NCBI RefSeq assembly: GCF_024700885.2
Contig: NZ_CP117016.1
Source of the DNA: Escherichia coli
GTDB taxonomy: Bacteria > Pseudomonadota > Gammaproteobacteria > Enterobacterales > Enterobacteriaceae
Direction: 5' to 3' (one strand)
Length of the DNA stretch: 64,000 bases
In this document: positions 25,838 to 38,153 of the stretch, one piece after another
Layout: every line of letters begins with the position of its first letter
Numbering within the stretch: the first letter of the stretch is position 1
Notes under the pieces: generated by a model
The model's input: the letters and a program-made list of their open reading frames with translations, nothing else
Told to the model about the DNA's origin: nothing
Databases searched by the model: none
Program-made: the position numbers and the translations under genes

Positions 25838-25913
25838 GCCGATATAGCTCAGTTGGTAGAGCAGCGCATTCGTAATGCGAAGGTCGTAGGTTCGACTCCT
25901 ATTATCGGCACCA
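25838..25913 (+). tRNA. thrW: tRNA-Thr (anticodon CGU)
   Basis: GCCGATATAGCTCAGTTGGTAGAGCAGCGCATTCGTAATGCGAAGGTCGTAGGTTCGACTCCTATTATCGGCACCA; cloverleaf with anticodon loop tTCGTAAt. Confidence 0.95.
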
Positions 25914-26077
25914 TCACCTAGTTTTCCCAAGTCAACCCACATCAACAAAATCATTTAAAAACATATATATTACGTTGTTTTCATACGTTTGAGGTCAACC
26001 CTTGTCTCTTGAAATCAACACGCGGTTGGGGGCACAATCAGGGGCATGTTCTGTTCGGTCTAGGAAATGTGCCCCCA

Positions 26078-27268
26078 ATGATGCTGAATGCCCGCAAGGT
26101 TGAAGCTGCGAAAGGAAAAGAGAAGAGCTACAAGCTGTTTGATGGAGGTGGCCTATATCTTCAGGTCGAACCTAATGGCTCGCGTTACTGGCGTATGAAA
26201 TACCGTTTTGCTGGTAAAGAGAAACGATTGTCCTTTGGTGTTTATCCAACAGTCACACTTGCTGATGCCAGACAAAAACGAGAAGACGCGAAGAAACTAC
26301 TCGCAGCAGGTGAAGATCCCGGCGAAGTCAAAAAAGCCAAAAAGCAGGCTTTAAATGCAGCGATTGAGACACTTAACCCATTCAGAGAAGTGGCGTTAGA
26401 GTGGCACAAAATGAAATCACCCAAATGGTCTGAGGGCTATGCTTCCGACATCATTGAGGCATTCGAGAAAGACATTTTCCCGCATATTGGGCACAGACCT
26501 ATAGCTGATATTCAGCCCCTTGAACTGCTTGAAGTTCTGAGATTGATAGAAGCTCGAGGCGCTATGGAGAAAGCGAAGAAAGTCCGTCAGCGATGCGGTG
26601 AAGTTTTTCGCTATGCCATCGTAACGGGTAGGGCAATCTACAATCCGGCACCGGATCTTGCCAGTGCGATGCAAGGACATGAAGCAGTCCACTATCCATT
26701 CCTCAAAGCCAACGAACTACCGGAGTTCTTTAATGCCCTTAATTCTTATTCAGGAAGTCCAATTGTATTGTTGGGGGCGCATTTACTTATCCTGACAGGT
26801 CTACGAACTGGAGAACTACGAGCAGGTGAGTGGCGAGAGGTGGATTTTGATAATGCGGTGTGGGAGATCCCAAAAGAACGTATGAAAATGCGTAGGAGCC
26901 ATATTGTCCCGTTGTCAAAACAAGCATTATCCCATCTCAAAAGTTTGAAAGAACTAACTGGGAACTACCCGCTGATGTTCCCTGGACGCAACGATCCTAG
27001 CAAATTTATGAGTGAAGCAAGCATTAATCAGGTGTTTAAACGTATTGGATATGCAGGGCGTGTTACGGGGCATGGTTTCAGGCATACGATGAGTACAATC
27101 CTACATGAGAAAGGATTTAACAGCGCTTGGATTGAAACCCAGCTTGCTCATTCGGACAAAAACTCTATTCGTGGAATTTATAACCATGCCCAATATCTCG
27201 AAGGGAGAAGAGAAATGATGCAATGGTATGCTAATTATTTATCTGAGCTAATTGGTACTCATAAATGA
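26078..27268 (+). CDS. int: P4-type tyrosine integrase (track ORF begins at 26009; likely start MMLNARK)
   Basis: N-terminus ...YKLFDGGGLYLQVEPNGSRYWRMKYRFAGKEKRLSFGVYP (P4 integrase arm-binding domain); catalytic HGFRHT...Y near the C-terminus. Confidence 0.9.
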   Translation: MMLNARKVEAAKGKEKSYKLFDGGGLYLQVEPNGSRYWRMKYRFAGKEKRLSFGVYPTVTLADARQKREDAKKLLAAGEDPGEVKKAKKQALNAAIETLNPFREVALEWHKMKSPKWSEGYASDIIEAFEKDIFPHIGHRPIADIQPLELLEVLRLIEARGAMEKAKKVRQRCGEVFRYAIVTGRAIYNPAPDLASAMQGHEAVHYPFLKANELPEFFNALNSYSGSPIVLLGAHLLILTGLRTGELRAGEWREVDFDNAVWEIPKERMKMRRSHIVPLSKQALSHLKSLKELTGNYPLMFPGRNDPSKFMSEASINQVFKRIGYAGRVTGHGFRHTMSTILHEKGFNSAWIETQLAHSDKNSIRGIYNHAQYLEGRREMMQWYANYLSELIGTHK

Positions 27269-28089
27269 ATATTTTAAAAATTAATAATACTGATTCTCTG
27301 CTCAGAGATTACTACCAGTTGGATGAAGCTTCAGAAAAAATTGGTTGTAGTGAAAAGGATATACTCTGGTTTGCCAGAGAACGAGATGTAGAGCTATGCA
27401 TGGAATTCCATGATGATGAGTATGATGTTTCATGTGGTTTGAAGATTGATGGTCAAATGGATGAGTTCTTATCTAATCTGAAATATTTACCACGAGATAG
27501 AAATGGCAATATTATGTTGTCAGACTTAAGTTCTATAAGAATCCCTGATGAAGATAATTTAATTGATAAAAATGGTTTTATTCGATGTTTCATATCCGGT
27601 TTATGGGCTGTTGATTATGAATATAAAGATCTGTTAGTTAAGCATGAGGGGCAACCGGATTCCTGGCCTATTCATTTTCTACTGGCGGGTACGCCTAATA
27701 TAAATTGTAAGGTAATTCTTTATGTAAATTATGATGAAAAAGAAAATTATTATCTTTTTGAGGTTTTGTGGATTACAAAGGTACAGATTCAAAAATTCAT
27801 TGATATAGTCTTATGCGAACAAAAGCGGATAAAAAACGCCAATAAATATAAATCACAATCTGAGGCGCAAAAACAAAAACATGCTGTTCCTCGAGCTGAA
27901 ATACTCATGGCTATTATTTCGCTCTATCATCGTGATATGAGGCTAAGAAGAGAGAGTCCAGCAGCGATAGCTGATTATCTTTTTCAACATGCCAGTGAGT
28001 TCTGGCCTAAGACCGGAGAACCGCCTTTGAGCTATGATACTGTTGTTAGTTTGCTACGTAGTTGCATGAAAAACACTAAGTTTAACTAA
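27265..28089 (+). CDS. Hypothetical 274-aa protein, AT-rich, with an N-terminal HTH_17/AlpA-like helix-turn-helix; overlaps the integrase stop by 4 nt
   Basis: YQLDEASEKIGCSEKDILWFARE resembles Xis/AlpA/MerR-type HTH; the remainder has no recognisable motif; markedly lower GC than int. Confidence 0.5.
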   Translation: MNILKINNTDSLLRDYYQLDEASEKIGCSEKDILWFARERDVELCMEFHDDEYDVSCGLKIDGQMDEFLSNLKYLPRDRNGNIMLSDLSSIRIPDEDNLIDKNGFIRCFISGLWAVDYEYKDLLVKHEGQPDSWPIHFLLAGTPNINCKVILYVNYDEKENYYLFEVLWITKVQIQKFIDIVLCEQKRIKNANKYKSQSEAQKQKHAVPRAEILMAIISLYHRDMRLRRESPAAIADYLFQHASEFWPKTGEPPLSYDTVVSLLRSCMKNTKFN

Positions 28090-28214
28090 ATATTAACAAT
28101 TATTGTGGCTAATGATTTTGGATTTTTTTCATTAGTCACATTTTTCTCATTTATAACCTATGTTTTAATTTTCCGTGTTGAAGCCAATAGACTTAGATAA
28201 ACGGAGAATGATGA

Positions 28215-28421
28215 ATGTTATCTAAACATGATAATACTACTTTGCAACGACCTTCAATGGATTCTCTGATCGATATGAAGTTTATTACTTCCGATTGTTT
28301 ATTAAGTGATAAATGGATTTATCGATTGATTTCTCTGAATCGCTTTCCAAAACCTATAAAAATAGGTCGGATGTCACGATGGCGCGCTGCTGATTATTAT
28401 AAGTGGCGAGATGGGTTTTAA
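28215..28421 (+). CDS. alpA: AlpA-family prophage transcriptional regulator
   Basis: 68 aa; ...DKWIYRLISLNRFPKPIKIGRMSRWRAADYYKWRD matches the AlpA HTH pattern. Confidence 0.75.
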   Translation: MLSKHDNTTLQRPSMDSLIDMKFITSDCLLSDKWIYRLISLNRFPKPIKIGRMSRWRAADYYKWRDGF

Positions 28422-28537
28422 GAAAACTCAGGTCAACATTTTGAGGGAATGAGAAATAAGGCAAGAGCAATTAATAAAGGGAATAGATTATCACCTACTC
28501 CCTAAGCCTTAATTGATAGTTAGTAATATTTAACTGA

Positions 28538-28711
28538 TTAGCCTTTAGGGTCAATCCCGCGTGATTGGAGTTCTTTGCGTAAAATTCTTTTAATCCAAGT
28601 TGCCAACGCGCTATCTCCATCTTTGCGCATTTCGTTTTCGAGTTGCAACCTAAAATCGTCGGTAAGACGCATTTGGAATGGTGGAGAACGTTTCTCTTGT
28701 GGTGTTGACAT
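28538..28711 (-). CDS. Ribbon-helix-helix (Arc/CopG-like) small DNA-binding protein, 57 aa; below the ORF-track cutoff
   Basis: Minus-strand translation MSTPQEKRSPPFQMRLTDDFRLQLENEMRKDGDSALATWIKRILRKELQSRGIDPKG; beta-strand then two helices typical of RHH. Confidence 0.6.
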   Translation of the reverse strand: MSTPQEKRSPPFQMRLTDDFRLQLENEMRKDGDSALATWIKRILRKELQSRGIDPKG

Positions 28712-28751
28712 GGTAATTACCCTAGAATATGATGACTACATGGTAATTACC
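28709..28751. promoter_or_regulatory. Two copies of CATGGTAATTACC (10-bp perfect palindrome GGTAATTACC), 30 bp apart; the first overlaps the RHH start codon; candidate operator
   Basis: Direct reading; spacing equals three helical turns; position at the divergent promoter region. Confidence 0.55.
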
Positions 28752-28842
28752 ATTGTAAGTATAGTTCGCTTGTAAAAGCAATGCCCGATTGTGCGGGAAC
28801 ACAAATCGGGCATTTAACCAACCGTTATAAGAGGTAACGAAG

Positions 28843-29016
28843 ATGGCTAAACAGAAGTGTACTTGGTTATTTGCGGCGATCAACCGCAGTCAACGCAATG
28901 CCCGTCCTGTGATGTTAAGGATCACCGCAGATAACGAGCGGTCAGCGCGGCGCAGACTTGCCCCGGACTATGTACTGAGCTTTGCCGGGCGCATTCCCTG
29001 CGGAGGTGAACATGCG
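28843..29016 (+). CDS. Small hypothetical ORF (57 aa), stop overlapping the next ORF start (ATGCGTAA)
   Basis: MAKQKCTWLFAAINRSQRNARPVMLRITADNERSARRRLAPDYVLSFAGRIPCGGEHA; translational-coupling geometry; no homology recognised. Confidence 0.35.
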
Positions 29017-29371
29017 TAATTATCCGCACCCCGGCGAACGCTGGCAGCATGAACGTGGCTGGACGGTCACGATTATCCGATTAATAGAAGCATCGCCCTC
29101 TGTGGCACTGGTTAATCCTGAATTCAGCTGTGAAGTGCTGATACGTCATGACAGCGACAACCAGCTTTCTTCCTGCCCTCTGGCATGGTTTGAACAGCGG
29201 TATACGCGCCTGTTTGATGTACCGCTCTTTAAGCCTGCACCAGCTCCTGCAGGCGGTAGTGGTTCCGGCCCGCTGACACTGCATCCGTCTGTGCTATTTA
29301 TCCGCTGGCGGGAGCGTAGCATATGGCGTTCTGCTGAGCCTGACGACGGTCACTATTCAAAGTTTCTCTGA
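29012..29371 (+). CDS. Hypothetical protein (start at MRNYPHPGERW)
   Basis: ORF in the island early-gene cluster; Gly/Pro linker in the middle. Confidence 0.45.
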   Translation: MRNYPHPGERWQHERGWTVTIIRLIEASPSVALVNPEFSCEVLIRHDSDNQLSSCPLAWFEQRYTRLFDVPLFKPAPAPAGGSGSGPLTLHPSVLFIRWRERSIWRSAEPDDGHYSKFL

Positions 29372-29402
29372 CAAAATACCGCTGAAAACGGAGTAATCCA
29401 CG

Positions 29403-29687
29403 ATGAATATTTCAAACGGGCACAACGGTGCTCAGGGCCACACTTTGCCTGAAAAACACAATACCGGTGCTTTTGCCTATGGGTTGTCAGAGGACAGTTT
29501 CGGAAAGCTGACCCGCGCAAGAAATGCCTGCGACATGCTCCAGCTTCTCTTTTCTGAATACCCGTCTCAGGCCGGAGCACTGGACGCTGGCTGTGCGCAT
29601 GGTGTCGCCGCGCTGATGGAGTACCTGCTGGCAGATTTGACGGATATTGCACACAGCTGCGCACTGATTGAAGGAGGTGCCAGATGA
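29403..29687 (+). CDS. Hypothetical protein, 94 aa
   Basis: ORF with AGGA-like ribosome-binding site; 4-nt overlap with the next ORF. Confidence 0.45.
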   Translation: MNISNGHNGAQGHTLPEKHNTGAFAYGLSEDSFGKLTRARNACDMLQLLFSEYPSQAGALDAGCAHGVAALMEYLLADLTDIAHSCALIEGGAR

Positions 29688-30067
29688 ACCAGCCGCAGGT
29701 TTCCATTTTCCCGGCAGAAATGACCACCGCGCTTTACCGGCGGGCTATTGCTTCAGCATGGCGGCAGAAAATGCTGAACGAAACTGGCAGTGATCAGTAT
29801 GGTCCGCACAGCCTGACGGTGGAGCGTATTGAAATGGCCATTGCGCTGCATATCGAGTGCGTACTGATTAACGAGTACGGCGAAGTGCAGGGCGCCGCTG
29901 CCGCGCTGGCACTGCTGACTGACATGCTGGAGCCGTCACTGCTGACCGCGCCGCCGGTACTGACCGCGCGCGGCTGTGAAGTGATGGCGGAGATGTACCG
30001 CACGCTTCCGGCGGCCTTTGATGACTTCTGCAGTACCGGTGTGACGTTGTATGAGGGGGAAGTATGA
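29684..30067 (+). CDS. Hypothetical protein, 127 aa; stop overlaps the primase start
   Basis: Coupled series of ORFs upstream of the alpha-like primase. Confidence 0.45.
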   Translation: MNQPQVSIFPAEMTTALYRRAIASAWRQKMLNETGSDQYGPHSLTVERIEMAIALHIECVLINEYGEVQGAAAALALLTDMLEPSLLTAPPVLTARGCEVMAEMYRTLPAAFDDFCSTGVTLYEGEV

Positions 30068-32736
30068 CAATACAGACGGTTACGCAGATTTCAGCCGCCG
30101 CACGGGGGAAATGGCCCGTTATTCTGCAGATGCTGCGTATTGATGTACCTGAAAACGGCAGGCACGGTCCCTGCCCGAAATGTGGGGGCAAGGATCGTTT
30201 TCGCCTTGATGACCTTGACGGGCGCGGGACGTGGATCTGCAGCCAGTGTGGCAATGGTGACGGTCTGGATCTGGTTAAGCTCGTAACCGGTTACAGCGTC
30301 AGAAAGGCTGCGCAGGAGGTGGCGCAGGTGCTTAATGTGCCGAATATGCAGGAACTGCCTGTTAAGCCTGCCAGACAAAAAGCCCCTAAACGCGACATGG
30401 GTCTTACCGTGGCGGCGCTGATGAAAGAGAGCCACACGGGAGAAAGCGCCTATCTGACAGGAAAAGGGTTCGCCGGATACCCGGCCTCTCTGACCGGAAG
30501 CGTGCAGCATATCAGCGGTAAGGATTTCCCTGCCGGTTCCCTGCTGTTACCACTCACGACCAACACCGGAGCCGTGACCGGTGCACAGCTTATCGCCCCG
30601 ACGGGTGAAAAAAGCATACTGCCCGGCAGCACGATGAAAGGCGCGTTTGTGTCGCTCAGCCCGTTACCGTCTGAACCACCGGTACAGGTGGTGATTACCG
30701 AAGGTTACGCTACGGCGCTGACGGTAAGTCAGCTCACTGCCGGATGCGTAGTGGCTGCCATATCTGCGGGCAACCTGCCCAATGTGGCGCAGTCGCTGCG
30801 GGCACGCTGGCCTGAGGTAAAAATTATCATCGCCGGTGATAACGATTTTCAGGACGGAGATGAGAATCCCGGCAGAGCCTTTGCTGAACGGGCGGCAAAA
30901 GCTGTTGGCGGCTGGATGACGCTGCCACCAGGAGAGATTAAGGCTGACTGGAATGACTTTCATCGGGAGCACGGTATTACCCGTGCCCGTGAAGCCTTTC
31001 GCAACGGTCTGGTACTGTGCGGGGAAGGCCGCACGCAACTGCCGCACGGGTTCCGTCTTACCCAGGAATATCTCTGGTATGAAAAGCAGGTACAGCGCAA
31101 CGGTGAGACGGAGATCCAGAACGTCAAAATATGCAGCCCGCTGCGCGTGACGGCAATCACCTGCGATGCCGATGGCGGTAACTTCGGACGACTGCTGGAA
31201 TGGGAAGATACGTGGGGTGAGTGTCGCCGCTGGGCGATGCCGATGGAAATGCTGAGCGGCAGTGGTGAGGAACTGCGCCGGGTACTGCTGGTTAACGGGC
31301 TGTCTTATATCAGCACCACCGGTGAGGCACGCGCACGCCTGATGGAATATATCTCACTGTGTAAACCGGAACGCCGCGTGACCTGCGTCAGTCGTACTGG
31401 CTGGCATGGTCAGGTTTACGTCCTGCAGGATGAGGTCAGCGGTGAAGGTGCAGAGGGTGTCATTCTCCAGACCACTTCCGTGCAGGGGCGTGATTTCCGC
31501 GTGTCGGGCACAACAGAGGAATGGCGGGAGCATGTATCCCGCTACTGTACCGGCAACTCCCGCGTGGCATTTGCTGTCAGCCTGGCCTTTGCTGCACCAC
31601 TGTTACGGCTGGTTGGTATGGACGGCGGCGGCTACCACCTCAAAGGGGAATCGACAGACGGTAAGACCACCACCATGAAAGCGGCAACCTCCGTCTGCGG
31701 CGGGCCTGACTACTGGCAGACATGGCGGGCCACCGGCAACGCGCTGGAGGGATGCGCCAGCCGCCGCAACGATGCCGCCATGATGCTTGATGAGATCCGG
31801 GAAGTTGACGGACGCGAGGCAGGCAATATCGCCTACATGCTGGCAAACGGTCAGGGCAAGGGCCGTGCCGGTACGGACGGTGAGCTGCGTACCCGTAAGC
31901 AGTGGCGCCTGTTGTTCTTTTCAACTGGCGAGTTGTCTCTGACCGAACATGCGGCAAAGGCCGGTGAGCGTACTTTTGCCGGGATGGAAGTCAGGATGAT
32001 CCAGATCCCCAGCGATTCCGGGAAGTTTGGCGTTTTTGAGGAGCTGCACGGCTTCGACAGCGGCAAGGCTCTGGCAGAGCATCTTGAATGGGCCACGTCC
32101 TGCTACTACGGTTCGCCGTTCCGGGAGTGGCTGAAAGCACTGACCGCTGATCTTAACGGACTAACGGCACAGGCAAAATCGCTGATGAAGGAATATGCTG
32201 CCGCCCTGACTCCGAAAGATGCAGGCAATCAGGTGGGCCGGGCTGTGAACCGCTTTGCTCTGGTGGCGATGGCAGGTGAACTGGCAACCCGTCTGGGTAT
32301 CACCGGCTGGCCTGAGGGTGAAGCACTGCGGGCAACCCGCGTCTGCCTGAACGCATGGCTGAAAGATCGCGGGCACACCGCCAATCAGGAAGATATCGCC
32401 GCACTGGAGCAGGTTCGCAGTTTCTTTACCGCGAATCAGTACAGCCGCTTTGCAGACTGGTATGACGAGCGCAACCGCCCCGGCAATATGGTGGGCTGGC
32501 GCAGGGTGGAGAAAGGCAGTACCGCGCAGGGCACGGAAGCTGTCACTACGTTCTATGTCATGCCGTCCGGCTGGAAAGAAATCTGCAGGGGATTTGACCC
32601 GCGCAAGGTGGCGCGTCTGTGCGCAGATCGTGGATACCTGCTGCCCTCCACAGATGGCAAACTCCAGACAACCATTCGCCCGCCAGAGATGAATCCCCGC
32701 AGGCTCTATGTCTTCAACAGCGAGGTGCCTGGTTAA
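30064..32736 (+). CDS. P4 alpha-like bifunctional primase-helicase (zinc-binding primase, Toprim and D5/P-loop NTPase domains)
   Basis: CPKCGG...CSQCG zinc ribbon near the N-terminus; Toprim-like ITEGYATALT...IIAGDND; Walker A GESTDGKTT; 890 aa. Confidence 0.85.
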   Translation: MTIQTVTQISAAARGKWPVILQMLRIDVPENGRHGPCPKCGGKDRFRLDDLDGRGTWICSQCGNGDGLDLVKLVTGYSVRKAAQEVAQVLNVPNMQELPVKPARQKAPKRDMGLTVAALMKESHTGESAYLTGKGFAGYPASLTGSVQHISGKDFPAGSLLLPLTTNTGAVTGAQLIAPTGEKSILPGSTMKGAFVSLSPLPSEPPVQVVITEGYATALTVSQLTAGCVVAAISAGNLPNVAQSLRARWPEVKIIIAGDNDFQDGDENPGRAFAERAAKAVGGWMTLPPGEIKADWNDFHREHGITRAREAFRNGLVLCGEGRTQLPHGFRLTQEYLWYEKQVQRNGETEIQNVKICSPLRVTAITCDADGGNFGRLLEWEDTWGECRRWAMPMEMLSGSGEELRRVLLVNGLSYISTTGEARARLMEYISLCKPERRVTCVSRTGWHGQVYVLQDEVSGEGAEGVILQTTSVQGRDFRVSGTTEEWREHVSRYCTGNSRVAFAVSLAFAAPLLRLVGMDGGGYHLKGESTDGKTTTMKAATSVCGGPDYWQTWRATGNALEGCASRRNDAAMMLDEIREVDGREAGNIAYMLANGQGKGRAGTDGELRTRKQWRLLFFSTGELSLTEHAAKAGERTFAGMEVRMIQIPSDSGKFGVFEELHGFDSGKALAEHLEWATSCYYGSPFREWLKALTADLNGLTAQAKSLMKEYAAALTPKDAGNQVGRAVNRFALVAMAGELATRLGITGWPEGEALRATRVCLNAWLKDRGHTANQEDIAALEQVRSFFTANQYSRFADWYDERNRPGNMVGWRRVEKGSTAQGTEAVTTFYVMPSGWKEICRGFDPRKVARLCADRGYLLPSTDGKLQTTIRPPEMNPRRLYVFNSEVPG

Positions 32737-32770
32737 GGCTTTGCGTGAGTCTTATTTATTAAGGGTAACA

Positions 32771-32958
32771 GGTGAAACAGGTGGAACAACCGTATTTTAC
32801 AGGGCTGAACCTGTTCCACCTTCTGAAATAGTGAGGTGGAACAGATGTAACGCCAGCCAATCCGCTGTTCCACCTTGTTACCCGCGATGTTCCACCGGTG
32901 CAGTGTATATAAATGCCTTATAAAACAAAGCCGTAACACATGTTTCACCTGTTCCACC
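32771..32958. repeat. Iteron cluster (replication origin): at least 8 copies of TGTT(C/T)CACC / GGTG(G/A)AACA in both orientations, plus an AT-rich patch
   Basis: Copies at 32771, 32780, 32811, 32836, 32864, 32888, 32941, 32949; the motif is one base off the P4 ori/crr repeat TGTTCACC bound by alpha. Confidence 0.7.
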
Positions 32959-33136
32959 GCATCAGGGACATAAAGCAGACTGAAACAGAGGGCATTTTTA
33001 TCTGGCTGGCTTTCATAGCCACGTCTGAATAACCGCAAGCGCCCGTTGTGCCAGCCACCACACACTGAACACCGATAGTGTGCTTGTGTCAGCCACGACA
33101 CAATTGACGTAACGAACCAACCCGACAGGAGAAGTC

Positions 33137-33880
33137 ATGAACAATACCGCAGTAAATAACAACCTTTCCACTTTTCCGGCTGTAACGCAGCGGGCACTGG
33201 AAACCATGAACACAGCCAGAAACGCATGGCTTGAAGCACGTCGTCAGCAGAAAGCGGCAGCGGATAATATTGCGACAATCCGCCAGCGTCGCGCTGAAAT
33301 GGAAGCCACGACGAACACACTGAATGAGGAGTGGCGCACGCTGTTTCGTGAAAGTCAGGGCGTGATCTCAAAGGAAATGAAAAAACTGCGCACGGAAATT
33401 GCGCTGGGACGAGAAACGCTTGAGGATTTTGATGAGCTGCTGGCGGCTCAGGAAAGCGAAAATGCACTTTTGCCGCAGAAAGCTGCAGAATTAGCCGGAA
33501 AGTATATCCACGCGCATAACATTCTTGTGGATATTCGCGCAAAACAAATCTGGGAGGATTTTATGCAGTCGCATGGAAAAGTGCTTATTCAGACGCTGAG
33601 CCTGCTTAAATCCACAATGGGCCGGGAAGCCAGTGCCGTTGTGGGTGTGGTGAATTCAGTTAATGACCCGGACACAGTGCTGAAAGACTTTATTCATAAA
33701 TATATCACCAGACCGGCTCTGGCTAACGATGCGATGCCTGAGCAGGACCCGGTGTTTAAACTGGCGGGAGTTGCCCCGGATTATGCGGCGCGTCTGGATT
33801 TCAGTAATCAACTCTCTCCGGCAGCTATGCATAAAATTAAGGTTCGTCAGGAACTTGCTGAGAAGGAGAAAGCAGTATGA
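33137..33880 (+). CDS. Hypothetical alpha-helical or coiled-coil protein, 247 aa
   Basis: A/E/R/Q-rich predicted helices; size and position are only suggestive of a Sid-like scaffold protein. Confidence 0.45.
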   Translation: MNNTAVNNNLSTFPAVTQRALETMNTARNAWLEARRQQKAAADNIATIRQRRAEMEATTNTLNEEWRTLFRESQGVISKEMKKLRTEIALGRETLEDFDELLAAQESENALLPQKAAELAGKYIHAHNILVDIRAKQIWEDFMQSHGKVLIQTLSLLKSTMGREASAVVGVVNSVNDPDTVLKDFIHKYITRPALANDAMPEQDPVFKLAGVAPDYAARLDFSNQLSPAAMHKIKVRQELAEKEKAV

Positions 33881-34428
33881 CGGCCCGAGGCACGCCTGAC
33901 CAGGCACTTACCAGTTTTCGGAATGCCCGTATTCTGTGGGCCGGACATAATGAGAGCCGAAAAGCCGTTGAACAACAGATAACATCTCTCCTCGCTGCCA
34001 CAGAAAAACCAGCAGATTATGCCCGACAGCTCGAATTACTGCGGGAACGTCTGGATGTGCTGAAATGGCAAATTAACTGTGCTGCGCGCGAATGCATTTA
34101 CTCGCAGCATTTACTGATGGAGGCCTGCACAGAAGCCGCTCTCAGCAATTTTATGCAGGCGAATGGGGCAGCCCTGACATCTGCACTGGCTCCGTTCCTG
34201 AAGGGGCGCGGAGGGGTTGACGTTGCGTCCCGTATATTACGCAGTGCTCTGGTTCGCCAGCTGGCAATAACACCGCCTGAATTTGCCGGGGATTATCGTG
34301 AGATCCTGGATGAATCCGGTTTGATGCTTGACCCCGGGATGATTCGTGATTGCCAGGGTTCTTACACCCCGGCACAACATCTGCGTTTTCAGCAACGCCT
34401 GAATGACATTAACGATATACAGGAGTGA
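33877..34428 (+). CDS. Hypothetical protein, 183 aa, coupled to the previous ORF
   Basis: 4-nt overlap with 33137..33880. Confidence 0.45.
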   Translation: MTARGTPDQALTSFRNARILWAGHNESRKAVEQQITSLLAATEKPADYARQLELLRERLDVLKWQINCAARECIYSQHLLMEACTEAALSNFMQANGAALTSALAPFLKGRGGVDVASRILRSALVRQLAITPPEFAGDYREILDESGLMLDPGMIRDCQGSYTPAQHLRFQQRLNDINDIQE

Positions 34429-34433
34429 TATTA

Positions 34434-34706
34434 ATGGCACTTAAATGTCCGGAATGCGGTACAGTTGCACACGCCAGAACAGCAGCCTATGAAGCTCCGT
34501 CAGTTAAACGCTCGTGGTATCAGTGCCAGAATCTGGAATGTTCCTGCACATTTACGGCACTGGAGAGTGTGGATAAGATAATCATGAAACCCCGGCGCAA
34601 TGAACAGGAACCAGACAAATCACAAACCCCGGTAAAACAACAGCAAACGCTCAATCGCTATGGCTCCGCGTCAAAACTGTCAAGCCGTCAGCAGATTCCT
34701 GTCTGA
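34434..34706 (+). CDS. Ogr/Delta-family zinc-finger late transcription activator (start at MALKCPECG)
   Basis: CPECG-N-H...YQCQNLECSCTF four-Cys zinc-finger pattern of P2 Ogr and P4 Delta. Confidence 0.8.
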   Translation: MALKCPECGTVAHARTAAYEAPSVKRSWYQCQNLECSCTFTALESVDKIIMKPRRNEQEPDKSQTPVKQQQTLNRYGSASKLSSRQQIPV

Positions 34707-35299
34707 TTAGAAAAAAAATGCCCACGTAATCCCGGTCGAGTACTGGGATTTTTAACACCTTACCCCTGGCTGGCCTGAGAGCGCATGAGTGCATGTCTAT
34801 GGCGCATGAAAACGCATGAGTCTCATGCACCATTTTTGACGCGAAAGCCCTTGTGTGGTGGCTTCTGAGACGATTAATGAGGTGCATGAAAACCAGTCTG
34901 TTAAGTGAAGCGGGAAGGCGTGCGGGGCTGCGCACGTAGCAGGGTTAAATGGTCAATTCTGGCGCAGCTCACGACATTAAGTCAGCCTCAATAGATGTAC
35001 GTGTTGGTAGGGGTAATTCGCTACTTTTTTGTATCCTAAATTGTATGGTTTGATGCTGATCGTTTCTTCACCGCACCTGCAGAGATATCAATTCAATGTG
35101 GACAAAAATGAGTCTGGCTCTTTCCGTATCACTAGAATTGCCAGTATTGTTAGGGATGATGCCCATATCATACGGAGGGAGCCAGTGGGGGCGATTGCGC
35201 GTGGAAAGTGCTTTGGATTTATTCATCGGTTTTATGATTCTACATAAGGAGCAAAGGTACTTGTATCGTATGAAAAAAAATAGTATAGATATAATGCTC

Positions 35300-35525
35300 C
35301 TTACGCGTTATGGCATAGTTATATGCTAGTCGGGCGATTAGCCAGACTCGAACTTATTGAACGGTATTAGGGTTGCGCTTGGTGTGCCTCTGGATTGCAC
35401 TCCATGCTGTCGCGCAATCCAGAGGCACACCAAGCGCTTCCTTTAGGTAAGTGAGTAAAAACAGCACCTTCTTCGATTTATGATGAAGGTGCTGCAATCG
35501 TAACGTTTTTTGTATACACGGATAG
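35300..35525 (+). ncRNA. Candidate retron non-coding RNA (msr-msd): 63-nt perfect hairpin 35375-35437 plus a second hairpin 35462-35494; boundaries and a1/a2 unresolved
   Basis: A perfect long inverted repeat immediately upstream of an effector-RT operon is the hallmark of msd; TATAAT at 35291. Confidence 0.5.
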
Positions 35526-35529
35526 TATA

Positions 35530-36498
35530 GTGGCTGAGACATACGAAGATAAAGTTGCTAATCATGTTTCAGAGTGGGAAATGGAAAATTTCCGTGTATG
35601 TTATGATGATCAGGTTATTTTCTTATGTGGTGCGGAAGTACTTCCTCAAGGAAGTGTTCAGACTTCAATGAGAGGGCATTTTTATCACTATTGCCTGAAT
35701 AAAAATAAAGATATAGCTGATAAAATAATTCTTGCCGAAAACTTCAAAAAATATCTTCAAAATAATCATTATCCAGACTTAATAACTTTTGAGCATGATG
35801 TTGCAAGTATATCTAGTTTAGTTGTTATTTTCTTGGAAAGCAGTGGTTCAATTGCTGAGTTAGGTGTTTTCTGTAATATTAGTGATGTCAATAAAAAATT
35901 ATTGATATTTGTTCCATCAGATGAAGTTGAAGGTGACAAGAAAGAGTCTTTCATTTACTTAGGGCCTTTATTGTTTTTAAAAGAAAAGGTCAATGAAAAA
36001 GCATTTAAGATTTATCCAAAACCCACTAATGGTTCTGATTACTCCGAGCATTTAGAGATTATGGCTGATGACTTGGCTGAACTATTACCTAGAAGTGGTA
36101 AGTTTGAAAGCTTCGATCCTGACAATTTAGGGCATATAGCTTTTCTTATATGCAGAATTGTGCATTTAGTAATGCCTATTAAGCTAAAGGAAATATTAAA
36201 TTGTTTAAAAATAATAGGTATCAATAAATATACTCTGACTGAGGTTGAAAGAATTTTGTTTTTATTGGAAACATTGGGTTTTATAAATATTTATCCGTAT
36301 GGCGATTTAAAATACTATTATTCAATGCAAGCCAGGCAAAATCTTAAATTAGGGAAAAATAAAACCGGATTCACAATCGATGAGGCTGGTATTTTTACTG
36401 ATATTAGTGTTTTTATCAATGACAATAAATTATGTAGTGATAAAAAAAGACGGCTGGTTTTGAAAGGCATTAAGGAGAAGCATAATGGACATAATTAA
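35530..36498 (+). CDS. Retron effector: nucleoside 2-deoxyribosyltransferase-like N-domain plus winged-helix-like C-domain (GTG start at 35530 or ATG at 35578)
   Basis: VIFLCGAEV and ESSGSIAELGVF resemble the NDT P-loop-like and catalytic-Glu motifs; overlaps the RT start by 14 nt; AT-rich. Confidence 0.6.
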   Translation: MAETYEDKVANHVSEWEMENFRVCYDDQVIFLCGAEVLPQGSVQTSMRGHFYHYCLNKNKDIADKIILAENFKKYLQNNHYPDLITFEHDVASISSLVVIFLESSGSIAELGVFCNISDVNKKLLIFVPSDEVEGDKKESFIYLGPLLFLKEKVNEKAFKIYPKPTNGSDYSEHLEIMADDLAELLPRSGKFESFDPDNLGHIAFLICRIVHLVMPIKLKEILNCLKIIGINKYTLTEVERILFLLETLGFINIYPYGDLKYYYSMQARQNLKLGKNKTGFTIDEAGIFTDISVFINDNKLCSDKKRRLVLKGIKEKHNGHN

Positions 36499-37417
36499 AA
36501 AAATCGCAGATGAAACTCTAATGCCGGTATCAAAAGTATCTGCTTTTATATTTACAGCCCCATATAGATATAAAGTATATCCCATCCCCAAAAGGAATGG
36601 TGGGTTTAGGGAGATTGCTCAACCGTCAAGGGCATTAAAGTTTATGCAAAGGATTGTTATTGCTGAACTAGAGAAAGTACTTAAGGTTCATGAAAACGCA
36701 TATGCTTATGTCAAAGGACGTAGTATAAAAGATAATGTGGAAAAGCATCAAAGAAACTCTTATATTTTGAAAGTTGATTTCTGCGACTTTTTTAATAGCA
36801 TAAACCCTTACGACCTTGAGTTATGTTTAAAAAACAATGGGTTAGACTCATTGTTAAGCTCACAAGAATTATTGAATAAACTTTTTTTCTATAAGAAAAG
36901 TAAAAGAGGTGCTTTATCAATGAGCATCGGGGCACCTAGTTCTCCATTTTTGTCAAATGCGATTATGTATAAGTTTGATTCAGTCATTAGTGATATGTGT
37001 TCAAATAAAAATATTACTTATACAAGATATGCTGATGATCTTACATTTTCTACTAATGAAAAAGGTATTTTGTATGAATTCATACATGAAATAGATAAAG
37101 TTCTTGAGGAGATAGATAGTCCTAAATTAAAACTAAATGATAAGAAAACCATATTTGCATCTAAAAAATGCAATCGTCATATAACAGGAATTGTTATTAA
37201 TAACGAAGAAAAACTTTCAATTGGTAGAGATAAAAAACGTTACTTAAGTAGTTTAATTCATAAATTCTCGCTTAATGCACTTAATGAGGAAGGAGTTGAA
37301 CATTTAAAAGGGTATTTGGCGTATGTAAATAAAATTGAACCTTCATTCATTAGCAGAATGAAAAGGAAATATGGAGTCGAAGTTGTCAACTCCATAATCA
37401 CATTTAATCCATTATAA
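36485..37417 (+). CDS. Retron-type reverse transcriptase, 310 aa
   Basis: RT motifs LKVDFCDFFNSI, SIGAPSSPFLSNAIMY, YTRYADDLTF (YADD) and the retron-specific ITGIVIN (VTG) motif. Confidence 0.85.
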   Translation: MDIIKKIADETLMPVSKVSAFIFTAPYRYKVYPIPKRNGGFREIAQPSRALKFMQRIVIAELEKVLKVHENAYAYVKGRSIKDNVEKHQRNSYILKVDFCDFFNSINPYDLELCLKNNGLDSLLSSQELLNKLFFYKKSKRGALSMSIGAPSSPFLSNAIMYKFDSVISDMCSNKNITYTRYADDLTFSTNEKGILYEFIHEIDKVLEEIDSPKLKLNDKKTIFASKKCNRHITGIVINNEEKLSIGRDKKRYLSSLIHKFSLNALNEEGVEHLKGYLAYVNKIEPSFISRMKRKYGVEVVNSIITFNPL

Positions 37418-37894
37418 ATGTGAACTTATTATATTTATAATGGTTGTGCTTTTTTCTTGTACCTTAGGGGTGTAAAAGAATGTCATCATGAAGATAATTA
37501 AAAAATGAATGGCAATAAGAGTAATAGGTAACATTTTTTCAATATCACTTAAATGGCGATGCCTTTTTTGTGTAATAACTTCCTCTTCTCTTTTGAAAGG
37601 AGTTATACCTATCTTGACCTCCATCTCCTGAATTACTGTAAACTTAGCAGCATTAATTCTTTTATAGGAAGTAATTAGATTTATCCAATAGATATTAATT
37701 ACGACTCCAGCGAGAGAGATTAAGATTACCCAAATAGGCTGTATTGTTGGCTTTAAAGAAAAATATCCAACAAGCGGTAAAATAGAAGAGTTTAAGGCTA
37801 ATAAAAATGTATTTGACTTAAGTCTTCGATCACTTATTCTATCCGCCATCTCAACGCATGTTTTATATATTTCTATGACTTTATCATCCGTCAC
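37412..37894 (-). CDS. Small multi-TM membrane protein (160 aa), SLATT-like topology; convergent on the RT, last gene before attR
   Basis: N-terminal amphipathic segment followed by 2-3 hydrophobic helices (ILPLVGYFSL..., IWVILISLAGVVINIYWINLI, LPITLIAIHFLIIFMMTFFY); AT-rich. Confidence 0.5.
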   Translation of the reverse strand: MTDDKVIEIYKTCVEMADRISDRRLKSNTFLLALNSSILPLVGYFSLKPTIQPIWVILISLAGVVINIYWINLITSYKRINAAKFTVIQEMEVKIGITPFKREEEVITQKRHRHLSDIEKMLPITLIAIHFLIIFMMTFFYTPKVQEKSTTIINIISSHL

Positions 37895-38137
37895 TAATAG
37901 TATCCTTATAAATTTCTGAGTTGTTCAAATAAATGTTATCATATATTTTTATCAACGTAATATGTATTTTTACGTATTTTTAACTGTGAGAGATACATAG
38001 TGATTGTTGGGTGCATGTACAATCCTTGATACTTAACAATGAAAGCGTAGTTGTGGGGGGGGGGCATATTTGGGGGCATTACTATTTAATCTTTCTTGAT
38101 TTTTATTATAAAACAACTGGTTGTATTGATGTTTTGT

Positions 38138-38153
38138 TCCTATTATCGCACCA
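38138..38153 (+). repeat. attR: TCCTATTATCGCACCA, a 15/16 match to the thrW 3' end
   Basis: Direct repeat of 25897-25913 lacking one G. Confidence 0.7.

What the first reader, a model, noticed from the sequence alone, without database searches (positions are those of the whole stretch)
32771..32958. P4-ori-like iteron array TGTT(C/T)CACC downstream of the primase gene
At least eight copies of a 9-mer in both orientations lie within 190 bp directly after the alpha-like gene, next to an AT-rich stretch (TGTATATAAATGCCTTATAAAAC). The P4 ori and crr are built of TGTTCACC repeats bound by alpha. Here the repeat carries one extra base, which suggests a distinct but related primase specificity.
Basis: partly seen in the sequence, partly recalled or inferred. 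Interest (0 to 1): 0.5.

Follow-up and report, generated by a model that had tools for sequence, protein, structure and literature searches.

The report
Satellite replication origin with iterons
The repeats are real and are almost certainly the replication origin of a 12-kb P4-like phage satellite, but they are read by a SaPI-Rep/Cch-type helicase tail fused to a P4-type primase, not by a P4-alpha-type origin-binding domain, so it is an ordinary kind of origin in a little-described family.

Summary
Observation confirmed. TGTTYCACC occurs 8 times in 32771-32958 (9 in the window; 0.93 expected), 35 bp after the stop of the 890-aa gene. A 27%-GC stretch lies inside the array.

Interpretation partly right. 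It is very probably an iteron origin read by the neighbouring protein, but not a P4-type ori. Only residues 5-316 (zinc ribbon and TOPRIM) are homologous to P4 alpha. The rest is a DUF927 helicase with a C-terminal winged helix. Its closest solved structures are SaPIbov1 Rep, SCCmec Cch and TcpK. No similarity to the P4 alpha origin-binding domain was detected.

Comparative evidence is strong. Nearly all of ~130 related loci carry an array after the gene. Layout is conserved across the 55 genome loci. The 9-mer differs by lineage: 13 dominant 9-mers, about 10 clearly distinct types. Iteron bases are conserved while spacers drift (2/72 vs 30/117 variable columns). Iteron type co-varies with the last 51 residues of the protein (exact Mann-Whitney p=0.0003). 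Residue 866 partitions the types without exception.

The element (25897-38153) has one array, lying both after the primase gene and before a Psid-like promoter; P4 keeps crr and ori 4.5 kb apart.

Verdict: a new member of the known "self-loading helicase plus downstream iterons" kind. Function is inferred, not tested.

The parts
25897..25913 (+). attL: the 3' end of tRNA-Thr(CGT), the left end of the ~12.25-kb satellite
   Evidence: tRNA at 25838-25913. The repeat TCCTATTATCG(G)CACCA recurs at 38138-38153.
29684..30067 (+). DUF5375 gene, the same family as P4 ORF106 (known to me as cnr), directly upstream of the replicase gene
   Evidence: Pfam DUF5375, 2.4e-13. P4 ORF106 is annotated as DUF5375. 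The name cnr comes from my own knowledge and from PMC8628076.
30064..32736 (+). Replicase gene, 890 aa. Zinc ribbon (residues 32-68), TOPRIM primase (209-304), DUF927 AAA+ helicase (330-612), then a helical region and a C-terminal winged helix (about 792-890).
32581..32733 (+). Codons for residues 840-890, the predicted recognition helix and wing. This segment co-varies with iteron type.
32744..32757 (+). Conserved non-iteron block CGTGAGTCTTATTT at the 5' edge of the array, in a 30-37% GC stretch
   Evidence: Alignment of 30 arrays; composition.
32762..32788 (-). Left triplet of sites on the - strand: degenerate TGTTACCCT (32762-32770), TGTTTCACC (32771-32779), TGTTCCACC (32780-32788)
32812..32820 (+). 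Iteron TGTTCCACC
32835..32852 (-). Iteron TGTTCCACC (32835-32843) plus a decayed neighbour (32844-32852, GATGTAACG). Close relatives have GGTGGAACG at the decayed position.
32866..32896 (+). Iterons TGTTCCACC at 32866-32874 and 32888-32896, with degenerate TGTTACCCG at 32876-32884 between them
32904..32929 (.). AT-rich stretch TGTATATAAATGCCTTATAAAACAAA, the proposed DNA unwinding element. Its position is conserved across the family.
   Evidence: GC 0.27; conserved TATAAAWCAA block.
32932..32958 (+). Right triplet on the + strand: degenerate CGTAACACA (32932-32940), TGTTTCACC (32941-32949), TGTTCCACC (32950-32958). It is inverted relative to the left triplet.
   Evidence: (inverted repeats I1 and I3).
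32995..33010 (+). Conserved block TTTTTATCTGGCTGGC about 40 bp after the last iteron. Function unknown. It travels with the array whatever gene follows.
   Evidence: A similar CTTTTCCTGGCTTGCC follows the P4 ori iterons.
33047..33102 (+). Psid-like late promoter region with two TGT-N12-ACA dyads 38 bp apart. It neighbours the origin but is not part of it.
   Evidence: (D4). P4 has the same spacing at L002 9494-9511 and 9532-9549.
38138..38153 (+). attR, the right end of the satellite

Best explanation
The array (about 32744-33010, core 32762-32958) is the vegetative replication origin of a 12.25-kb P4-like satellite prophage integrated in tRNA-Thr.

Proposed mechanism:
1. The 890-aa protein encoded just upstream binds the 9-bp iterons through its C-terminal winged-helix domain (residues about 792-890, with the reading elements in 840-890).
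2. It assembles as DUF927/MCM-like hexamers on the inverted outer triplets and inner sites.
3. It melts the 27%-GC stretch at 32904-32929 and loads itself, without a separate loader.
4. Its own N-terminal zinc-ribbon/TOPRIM domain lays down the primers.

This is the SaPI Rep / Gram-negative PICI pri-rep-ori logic, carried out by a chimera of a P4-alpha-type primase and a SaPIbov1-Rep/Cch-type helicase.

Shown here: the repeats, their selective conservation, the family-wide conserved layout with lineage-specific sequence, co-variation with the last 51 residues, and the domain homologies.

Inferred: DNA binding, melting, self-loading and origin firing.
For: (1) Enrichment: 8 copies in 188 bp against 0.93 expected per 64 kb.

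(2) Family-wide occurrence.
- In the 55 genome loci with a relative of the protein, every locus with an intact gene and enough downstream sequence has an array. Three carry it about 1.1 kb downstream, behind an inserted recombinase gene.
- The site layout is the same: offsets from the stop of about 38<, 47<, 80>, 103<, 112<, 134>, 156>, 176<, [AT-rich], 209>, 218>.
- The 9-mer differs by lineage: TGTTCCACC, TGTTACACC, TGTTACCCC, TGTTACCCA, TGTTACCAG, TGTTACCAC, TGTATCCAC, TGTAACCGC, TGTTCCCAC, TGTAGTACA.
- In the 130 genome and metagenome loci analysed, 13 dominant 9-mers were found, and most loci show a clear array.

(3) Purifying selection on iterons only: 2/72 against 30/117 variable columns, p=1.6e-5.

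(4) Co-variation with the protein's C-terminus.
- In protein pairs 90-98% identical overall but with different iterons, residues 840-890 differ by 5.9-19.6%. In pairs with the same iterons they differ by 0-3.9%, mostly 0.
- A hand-picked set of lineage contrasts (5 different-type against 10 same-type pairs) gives exact Mann-Whitney p=0.00033.
- L019 and L030 are 98.1% identical overall. Their divergence is confined to the last ~200 nt of the gene plus the array, while the upstream cnr-like gene is 99-100% identical.

(5) Residue 866 is K (or M) in all 76 loci whose iteron has C at position 8, and R in all 54 others. One recent K-to-R switch accompanies TGTTACACC to TGTTACCAG in 96%-identical Xenorhabdus proteins.

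(6) Serratia and Brenneria relatives whose match starts at residue ~324, so apparently without the primase domain (L050, L051), still have arrays.

(7) Homology and fold.
- The helicase part matches PDB 8TCH (SaPIbov1 Rep, 4.6e-15) and 5DGK (Cch, 2.9e-13).
- In the AF2 model of residues 640-890, the last ~100 residues have pLDDT above 90.

(8) Precedent from the literature.
- SaPI Reps recognise iterons immediately downstream of rep through a C-terminal winged helix. An AT-rich region lies among the iterons, and the Reps self-load (PMC9371898; PMC7581432).
- Gram-negative PICIs have the same layout, and a pri-ori plasmid replicates (PMC6092414).

(9) Nothing else explains the region: no Rfam match, and no consensus promoter or terminator in the array.
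Against: - There is no experimental evidence for this family.
- The AT-rich stretch is off-centre (6-9 sites on the left, 2-3 on the right), unlike the roughly central SaPI arrangement.
- In this window the inverted copy that abuts the AT stretch in many relatives has decayed.
- No single alignment column separates TGTTCCACC from TGTTACACC readers in both independent lineages. The recognition rule is therefore not simple, and part of the K/R866 partition may be phylogenetic inertia.
- In two of the switched pairs, a small upstream ORF also diverges. A second specificity factor cannot be excluded.
- The AF2 model is moderate overall (pLDDT 77.6, pTM 0.52).
Confidence: 0.8

Rival explanations
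1. A genuine P4-type origin. The iterons are a one-base variant of the P4 type I repeat. They would be bound by an alpha-like C-terminal (Pox_D5 winged-helix) domain of related specificity, working as P4 ori/crr does.
For: - The iteron resembles CTGTTCACC with one inserted base.
- The N-terminal primase is homologous to that of alpha.
- A DUF5375 (cnr-family) gene precedes the replicase gene, as in P4.
- The array precedes a Psid-like promoter at the same distance as P4 ori does.
- A CTGGC-containing block follows the iterons in both.
Against: - The protein has no D5_N, DUF5906 or Pox_D5 domain.
- hhalign against the alpha C-terminus gives probability 0.8%.
- The array contains no exact TGTTCACC.
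- There is no DNA similarity to P4 ori or crr.
- The element has a single array, not the bipartite ori plus crr.
- Most family members use TGTTACCAG-like iterons.
Confidence: 0.04
2. The array is a binding platform for the same protein but not the initiation site. It would act as a crr-like cis enhancer, as copy-number control or incompatibility (handcuffing) iterons, or as an operator that autoregulates read-through into the late operon.
For: - In P4 the array in this position, directly after alpha, is crr, which is required in cis but is not where replication starts (annotation, plus my own knowledge).
- The array lies between the replicase gene and the late genes, with no terminator found. 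Bound protein could therefore gate transcription.
- Co-resident family members always carry different iteron types (3 of 3 genomes). This fits incompatibility pressure.
Against: - No second iteron cluster exists in the 12-kb element that could serve as the real origin.
- An AT-rich unwinding-type block is conserved inside the array.
- The SaPI and PICI precedents combine binding and initiation at this same site.
- These roles do not exclude origin function.
Confidence: 0.12
3. The repeats are read by a different protein, and the association with the replicase gene is only linkage. Candidates are Ogr/Delta, AlpA, the DUF5375 protein, or the 72-74-aa ORF seen in relatives.
For: - Iterons start with TGT, the half-site of Ogr/Delta dyads.
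- In two of the switched pairs, the small ORF upstream of the primase gene also diverges.
Against: - The Delta-type TGT-N12-ACA dyads form a separate, distinct pair at 33047-33102.
- In L019/L030 the upstream genes are 99-100% identical while the iterons differ.
- The genes downstream of the array vary (sid-like, delta, others) while the array stays with the replicase gene.
- Divergence localises to the replicase C-terminus in every switched pair.
Confidence: 0.04

Closest known systems
SaPI replication module (SaPIbov1 Rep and its ori) and the related SCCmec Cch helicase
   Same: - DUF927 / MCM-like AAA+ helicase core, with sequence matches to 8TCH and 5DGK.
- C-terminal region of the same fold, ending in a winged helix.
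- Short iterons immediately 3' of the gene, in both orientations, around an AT-rich stretch.
- Specificity tracks the C-terminus.
   Different: - Gram-negative host.
- Iterons are 9 bp rather than 5-6 bp.
- The AT-rich stretch is off-centre.
- The primase is a fused DnaG-type zinc-ribbon/TOPRIM domain of P4-alpha ancestry.
- The element hijacks its helper through Psu/Sid/Delta-type genes rather than SaPI functions.
Gram-negative PICI pri-rep-ori modules (for example EcCICFT073; Fillol-Salom et al. 2018, PMC6092414)
   Same: - Unidirectional int-alpA-...-primase-ori organisation.
[quoted passage not shown]
- Plasmid replication dependent on pri and ori was shown for one member.
   Different: - I could not establish whether the EcCICFT073 primase is of the DUF927 type, because the iteron sequences appear only in a figure.
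- This element carries Psu, Sid-like and Delta genes and a Psid-like promoter, so it is P4-like rather than a lambda-dependent PICI.
Phage P4 alpha with ori and crr
   Same: - Homologous primase domain (39% identity over 321 aligned positions, residues 5-316).
- Upstream DUF5375/cnr-family gene.
- Iterons in both orientations near an AT-rich stretch.
- An array sits after the replicase gene (like crr) and before the Psid promoter (like ori).
   Different: - The helicase is DUF927 rather than D5/SF3 type, and the origin-binding domain is different.
- The iteron is 9 bp rather than 8 bp.
- There is one array instead of two sites 4.5 kb apart.
- The late operon is co-directional, in the order sid-like, psu, delta.
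TcpK winged helix bound to pCW3 oriT (PDB 5VFX)
   Different: It is a relaxosome accessory protein for conjugation, not a replication initiator. Sequence identity is 7%.

Membership tests
P4 alpha-ori/crr replication system | Initiator with D5-type (D5_N/DUF5906) SF3 helicase | tested here: not met
   Pfam finds DUF927 instead. P4 alpha, run in parallel, shows D5_N and DUF5906. BLASTP similarity stops at residue 316.
P4 alpha-ori/crr replication system | C-terminal Pox_D5-type winged-helix origin-binding domain | tested here: not met
   No Pfam match in residues 634-890. hhalign probability 0.8%. The P4 alpha origin-binding domain (1KA8) was not returned by the sequence or fold searches.
P4 alpha-ori/crr replication system | Type I iteron TGTTCACC | tested here: not met
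   No exact copy in the array. The repeat is the 9-mer TGTTYCACC.
P4 alpha-ori/crr replication system | Two cis sites (ori and crr) several kb apart | tested here: not met
   Only one cluster lies within 25897-38153, even allowing one mismatch.
P4 alpha-ori/crr replication system | Zinc-ribbon plus TOPRIM primase domain homologous to alpha, and an upstream cnr-family gene | tested here: met
   39% identity over residues 5-316, E=1e-48. DUF5375 gene at 29684-30067.
SaPI/PICI-type Rep-ori (self-loading helicase with downstream iterons) | Iteron array immediately 3' of the initiator gene | tested here: met
   The first site lies 26-35 bp after the stop. The same holds for the genome loci and for most of the 130 loci analysed.
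SaPI/PICI-type Rep-ori (self-loading helicase with downstream iterons) | Iterons on both sides of an AT-rich region, in opposite orientations | tested here: met
   Sites lie on both sides of 32904-32929 (GC 0.27), and the outer triplets are inverted. The arrangement is off-centre, and in this window the copy abutting the AT stretch has decayed.
SaPI/PICI-type Rep-ori (self-loading helicase with downstream iterons) | Initiator is a Rep/Cch-type AAA+ helicase with a C-terminal winged-helix domain | tested here: met
SaPI/PICI-type Rep-ori (self-loading helicase with downstream iterons) | Iteron sequence matched by initiator C-terminal specificity | tested here: met
   Statistical co-variation only. 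Binding itself was not tested.
SaPI/PICI-type Rep-ori (self-loading helicase with downstream iterons) | Initiator plus array is sufficient for autonomous replication; ATP-independent binding and melting | not testable with these tools
   This needs plasmid replication, EMSA and footprinting experiments.
P4-like satellite (element level) | Integrase, AlpA, replicase, Psu/Sid and Delta genes in an element of about 10 kb at a tRNA | tested here: met
   Pfam matches for int, AlpA, two Psu-family genes and Ogr_Delta. RefSeq annotation of an identical locus. att sites. No epsilon homologue and no P2/P4 cos were found.

The most novel reading that the evidence does not exclude
This family would be a natural set of at least ten mutually orthogonal replicons. 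Origin specificity would be set by a ~50-residue winged-helix cassette (residues 840-890, with residue 866 reading iteron position 8). The cassette would be exchanged or co-evolve together with the adjacent array, driven by incompatibility between satellites sharing a cell. If so, the specificity code could be read from sequence and transplanted. It would also show that P4-like satellites replaced the P4 bipartite ori/crr with a single SaPI-type origin through a domain swap across the Gram divide.
Probability: 0.35. Interest if true: 0.55.

Novelty: new member of a known kind. Interest (0 to 1): 0.36.

Why it matters
- **Prevalence.** This exact element is in 326 of 5426 complete E. coli genomes. 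The conserved helicase core of its replicase gene matches 916 of 5426 genomes at 60-100% nucleotide identity. Relatives occur across Enterobacterales.
- **Gap in the P4 model.** These satellites carry anti-phage defence cargo (here a retron), yet their replication is assumed to follow the P4 model. For this family the P4 ori/crr-alpha paradigm does not apply. The module is a P4-primase / SaPI-Rep-type chimera with one origin.
- **Testable specificity map.** The comparative data give a sequence-level hypothesis for how a winged helix reads iterons: which 51 residues, which iteron types, and one candidate residue.
- **Possible uses.** The same data could predict incompatibility between co-resident satellites. 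They could also provide orthogonal origin-initiator pairs for engineering.
- **Limits.** None of this changes how origins are understood in general.

Tried and rejected
- **Literature search for TGTTCACC**. It returned only primer matches and was useless.
- **BLAST of the intergenic region.** There was no match against phage records. The only plasmid matches were 0.65-1.2-Mb records of doubtful plasmid status.
- **Search for alignment columns that cleanly separate TGTTCCACC readers from TGTTACACC readers.** None was found in the part of the protein shared by both independent lineages.
- **Mutual information between columns and iteron type**. It was dominated by the hypervariable N-terminal linker, that is by phylogeny, so I used contrasts between close pairs instead.
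- **DNA comparison with the whole P4 genome.** Only int, the primase 5' part and psu match; nothing at ori or crr does.
- **P2/P4 cos.** Not found, even with 3 mismatches.
- **16-nt exact repeat** at 32987 and 35671. The contexts differ, so it is probably chance.
- **Arrays apparently absent from L039, L047 and L056.** This was rejected: the arrays lie 1.1 kb downstream, behind an inserted recombinase gene. L054 is a decayed pseudogene with no array.
- **RNA element, promoter or terminator as explanations for the repeats.** Rejected.

Full report
**1. The observation**

The 9-mer TGTTYCACC occurs eight times between 32771 and 32958. Three copies are on the minus strand and five on the plus strand. 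There is only one other copy in the 64-kb window, and shuffles give a mean of 0.93 copies.

The array starts 35 bp after the stop codon of the ORF 30064-32736.

The exact P4 octamer TGTTCACC is absent from the array.

Four degenerate copies sit where relatives have good copies, so the array is really about twelve sites over 32762-32958. It has an inverted triplet at each end.

**2. Context**

The region lies in a 12.25-kb island between the 3' end of tRNA-Thr(CGT) (25897-25913) and a repeat of that sequence at 38138-38153. All genes from int to RT below are on the plus strand:

- integrase
- AlpA-like regulator
- Icd-like gene
- DUF5375 gene (the family of P4 ORF106/cnr)
- the 890-aa replicase
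- the array
- a 247-aa Psu-family gene (Sid-like by size and position)
- Psu
- Ogr/Delta
- a retron (msr, effector, RT)

So this is a P4-like satellite. An identical stretch is present in 326 of 5426 complete E. coli genomes.

In P4 itself, the array directly after alpha is crr. The ori lies 4.5 kb away, just upstream of sid. Here the late genes follow the replicase gene on the same strand, so one array occupies both relative positions. No second cluster exists in the element, even allowing one mismatch.

**3. The protein is not an alpha**

- BLASTP against P4 alpha aligns only residues 5-316 (zinc ribbon and TOPRIM), at 39% identity.
- P4 alpha continues with D5_N, DUF5906 and Pox_D5 domains. 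The window protein continues with DUF927 and then about 250 residues with no Pfam match.
- The helicase part matches the solved structures 8TCH (SaPIbov1 Rep) and 5DGK (SCCmec Cch) by sequence.
- An AlphaFold2 model of residues 640-890 is confident over the last ~100 residues.
- The P4 alpha origin-binding domain does not appear in either list.
- A profile comparison with the last 134 residues of alpha gives a probability of 0.8%.
- The literature describes two families of staphylococcal self-loading helicases: a DUF927 type (SaPIbov1 Rep, Cch) and a D5 type (SaPI5 Rep, Cch2) (PMC7581432). P4 alpha is of the D5 type. The protein here is of the DUF927 type, fused to an alpha-type primase.

**4. 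Comparative evidence that the array is functional and is read by this protein**

*Family size.* The protein family is large in Enterobacterales, with 1709 hits.

*Occurrence and layout.*
- I fetched 55 genome loci and 80 metagenome loci.
- A de novo k-mer analysis of the DNA after each gene found an array in every genome locus with an intact gene and enough downstream sequence.
- In three loci a recombinase gene has been inserted between gene and array, which lies 1.1 kb away.
- The positions and orientations of the sites relative to the stop codon are conserved.
- Three non-iteron blocks are also conserved: a 5' CGTGAGTCTTATTT, the AT-rich TATAAAWCAA, and a 3' TTTYTCTGGCNGGC.

*Lineage-specific sequence.* The 9-mer itself is lineage-specific. 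Thirteen dominant 9-mers were found in the 130 loci analysed, about ten of them clearly distinct. A concerted change of all copies with the layout kept is what co-evolution with a binding protein predicts.

*Selection.* Within six TGTTCCACC arrays from different genera, 2 of 72 iteron columns vary against 30 of 117 spacer columns (p=1.6e-5).

*Which protein part tracks the iterons.*
- In protein pairs 90-98% identical overall but with different iterons, the last 51 residues differ by 5.9-19.6%. In equally close pairs with the same iterons they differ by 0-3.9%. A hand-picked set of lineage contrasts gives an exact test of p=0.0003.
- The hypervariable linker between zinc ribbon and TOPRIM does not discriminate between the two classes of pair.
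- At the DNA level, L019 and L030 are 95-100% identical along 6 kb. The exception is an island covering the last ~200 nt of the gene and the array. The upstream cnr-like gene is 99-100% identical there.
- Residue 866 lies at the start of the predicted wing strand. It is K or M in all 76 loci whose iteron has C at position 8, and R in all 54 others. One recent switch sits in a 96%-identical background. Part of this partition may be shared ancestry.
- No single column explains TGTTCCACC against TGTTACACC in both independent lineages.

**5. Mechanism**

By analogy with SaPI Reps, I propose the following. SaPI Reps have a C-terminal winged helix that binds iterons directly after rep. An AT-rich region lies among the iterons, binding and melting are ATP-independent, and the helicase loads itself (PMC9371898). 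Gram-negative PICI pri-ori modules follow the same plan (PMC6092414).

In this element, the winged helix would bind the iterons. Hexamers would form on the array. The 27%-GC stretch would be melted, the helicase would load itself, and the fused TOPRIM domain would prime. All of these steps are inferred.

Rivals are scored in the report sections:
- a binding platform for copy control or transcription gating, without initiation at this site
- a different reader protein
- a true P4-type origin

The main loose end is a small ORF upstream of the primase gene that also diverges in two of the switched pairs.

**6. Comparison with the known, and novelty**

The module works like a SaPI/PICI Rep-ori and meets every feature of that kind that could be tested here. 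It fails four of five defining features of the P4 alpha-ori/crr system.

The resemblance of TGTTCCACC to TGTTCACC is probably a coincidence of one lineage. The family's commonest iteron is TGTTACCAG, and there is no DNA similarity to P4 ori or crr.

I found no paper describing the origin of DUF927-type P4-like satellites. The kind of system is well known, however. This is a new member of a known kind, with a useful specificity map attached.

**7. Verdict**

Noticed in passing
window 33047-33064 and 33085-33102: Two near-identical TGT-N12-ACA dyads (TGTGCCAGCCACCACACA and TGTGTCAGCCACGACACA) lie 38 bp apart, just upstream of the Sid-like gene. P4 Psid has dyads with the same spacing (L002 9494-9511 and 9532-9549). 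This is probably a Delta/Ogr-activated late promoter.
   Followed up: partly
window 35296-37417: A retron sits in the slot after delta: msr RNA at 35296-35365 (Rfam, above gathering), the effector at 35530-36498 and the reverse transcriptase at 36485-37417. RefSeq annotates them as the St85 family. Relatives carry other cargo at the same place (another RT in L018, AbiTii in L024).
   Followed up: partly
window 25897-25913 and 38138-38153: These are the att repeats that delimit the satellite (TCCTATTATCGGCACCA and TCCTATTATCG-CACCA), giving about 12.25 kb in tRNA-Thr(CGT) next to proA. A 20-nt match to a P4 attP arm repeat lies at 38060-38079.
   Followed up: yes
whole window: The P2/P4 cos sequence GGCGAGGCGGGGAAAGCAC has no match, even with 3 mismatches, although the element has Psu, Sid-like and Delta genes. 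The packaging site, and hence the helper type, is unknown.
   Followed up: partly
window 32744-32757 and 32995-33010; also L002 9448-9465: Two non-iteron blocks flank the array and are conserved across the family, whatever gene follows: CGTGAGTCTTATTT and TTTTTATCTGGCTGGC. P4 has a similar CTTTTCCTGGCTTGCC about 35 bp after its last ori iteron. Function unknown.
   Followed up: partly
L023 2741-2959, L024 2735-2959 (likewise L025 and L028 around 2700-2900): A 72-74-aa ORF directly upstream of the primase gene is only 65-77% identical at the nucleotide level in the two pairs that switched iteron type. In a same-type pair it is 99-100% identical. It may be a partner that co-evolves with the winged helix, analogous to P4 Cnr. 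The pattern is absent in L019/L030.
   Followed up: partly
L039 5649-6656 (also L047 and L056): A 335-aa integrase-like ORF (by its sequence; no family search was run) is inserted between the primase gene and its array. The array (TGTTCCCAC, 10 copies) lies about 1.1 kb downstream with its layout intact.
   Followed up: partly
L004/L046, L012/L042, L013/L052: Three genomes each carry two family members, and in each case the iteron types differ: Pantoea stewartii (TGTTCCACC and TGTTACACC), Enterobacter intestinihominis (TGTTACCAG and TGTTCCACC), Pantoea leporis (TGTTACACC and TGTTACCAG). This fits incompatibility avoidance, but three cases are too few to be significant.
   Followed up: no
L058 (E. 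coli 2/0, tRNA-Arg) and L059 (E. coli SCU-313, ssrA): Another 585 E. coli genomes match the helicase-core DNA only at 60-80% identity. Two were inspected. L058 is a satellite with a P2-family major capsid gene, Ogr/Delta and TGTTACCAG iterons. L059 is an ssrA island with AlpA, a DUF927-only protein and TGTACCACC-type repeats.
   Followed up: partly
window 32844-32852 and about 32897-32905: This window's array has lost two copies that close relatives keep. One reads GATGTAACG where they have GGTGGAACG. The other is the inverted copy that abuts the AT-rich stretch.
   Followed up: yes
metagenome loci among L060-L139: Four loci have methionine instead of lysine at residue 866 (DGMLQTN), with unchanged TGTTCCACC iterons. 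Three others (L071, L075, L127) have arrays in which TGTTTCACC outnumbers TGTTCCACC.
   Followed up: no
window 28777-28848 (-): A weak, sub-threshold Rfam match to the SymR antitoxin RNA (31.6 bits against a gathering score of 61, E=0.011) lies next to the Icd-like gene. It is probably chance. The region corresponds to where P4 encodes its immunity RNA.
   Followed up: no
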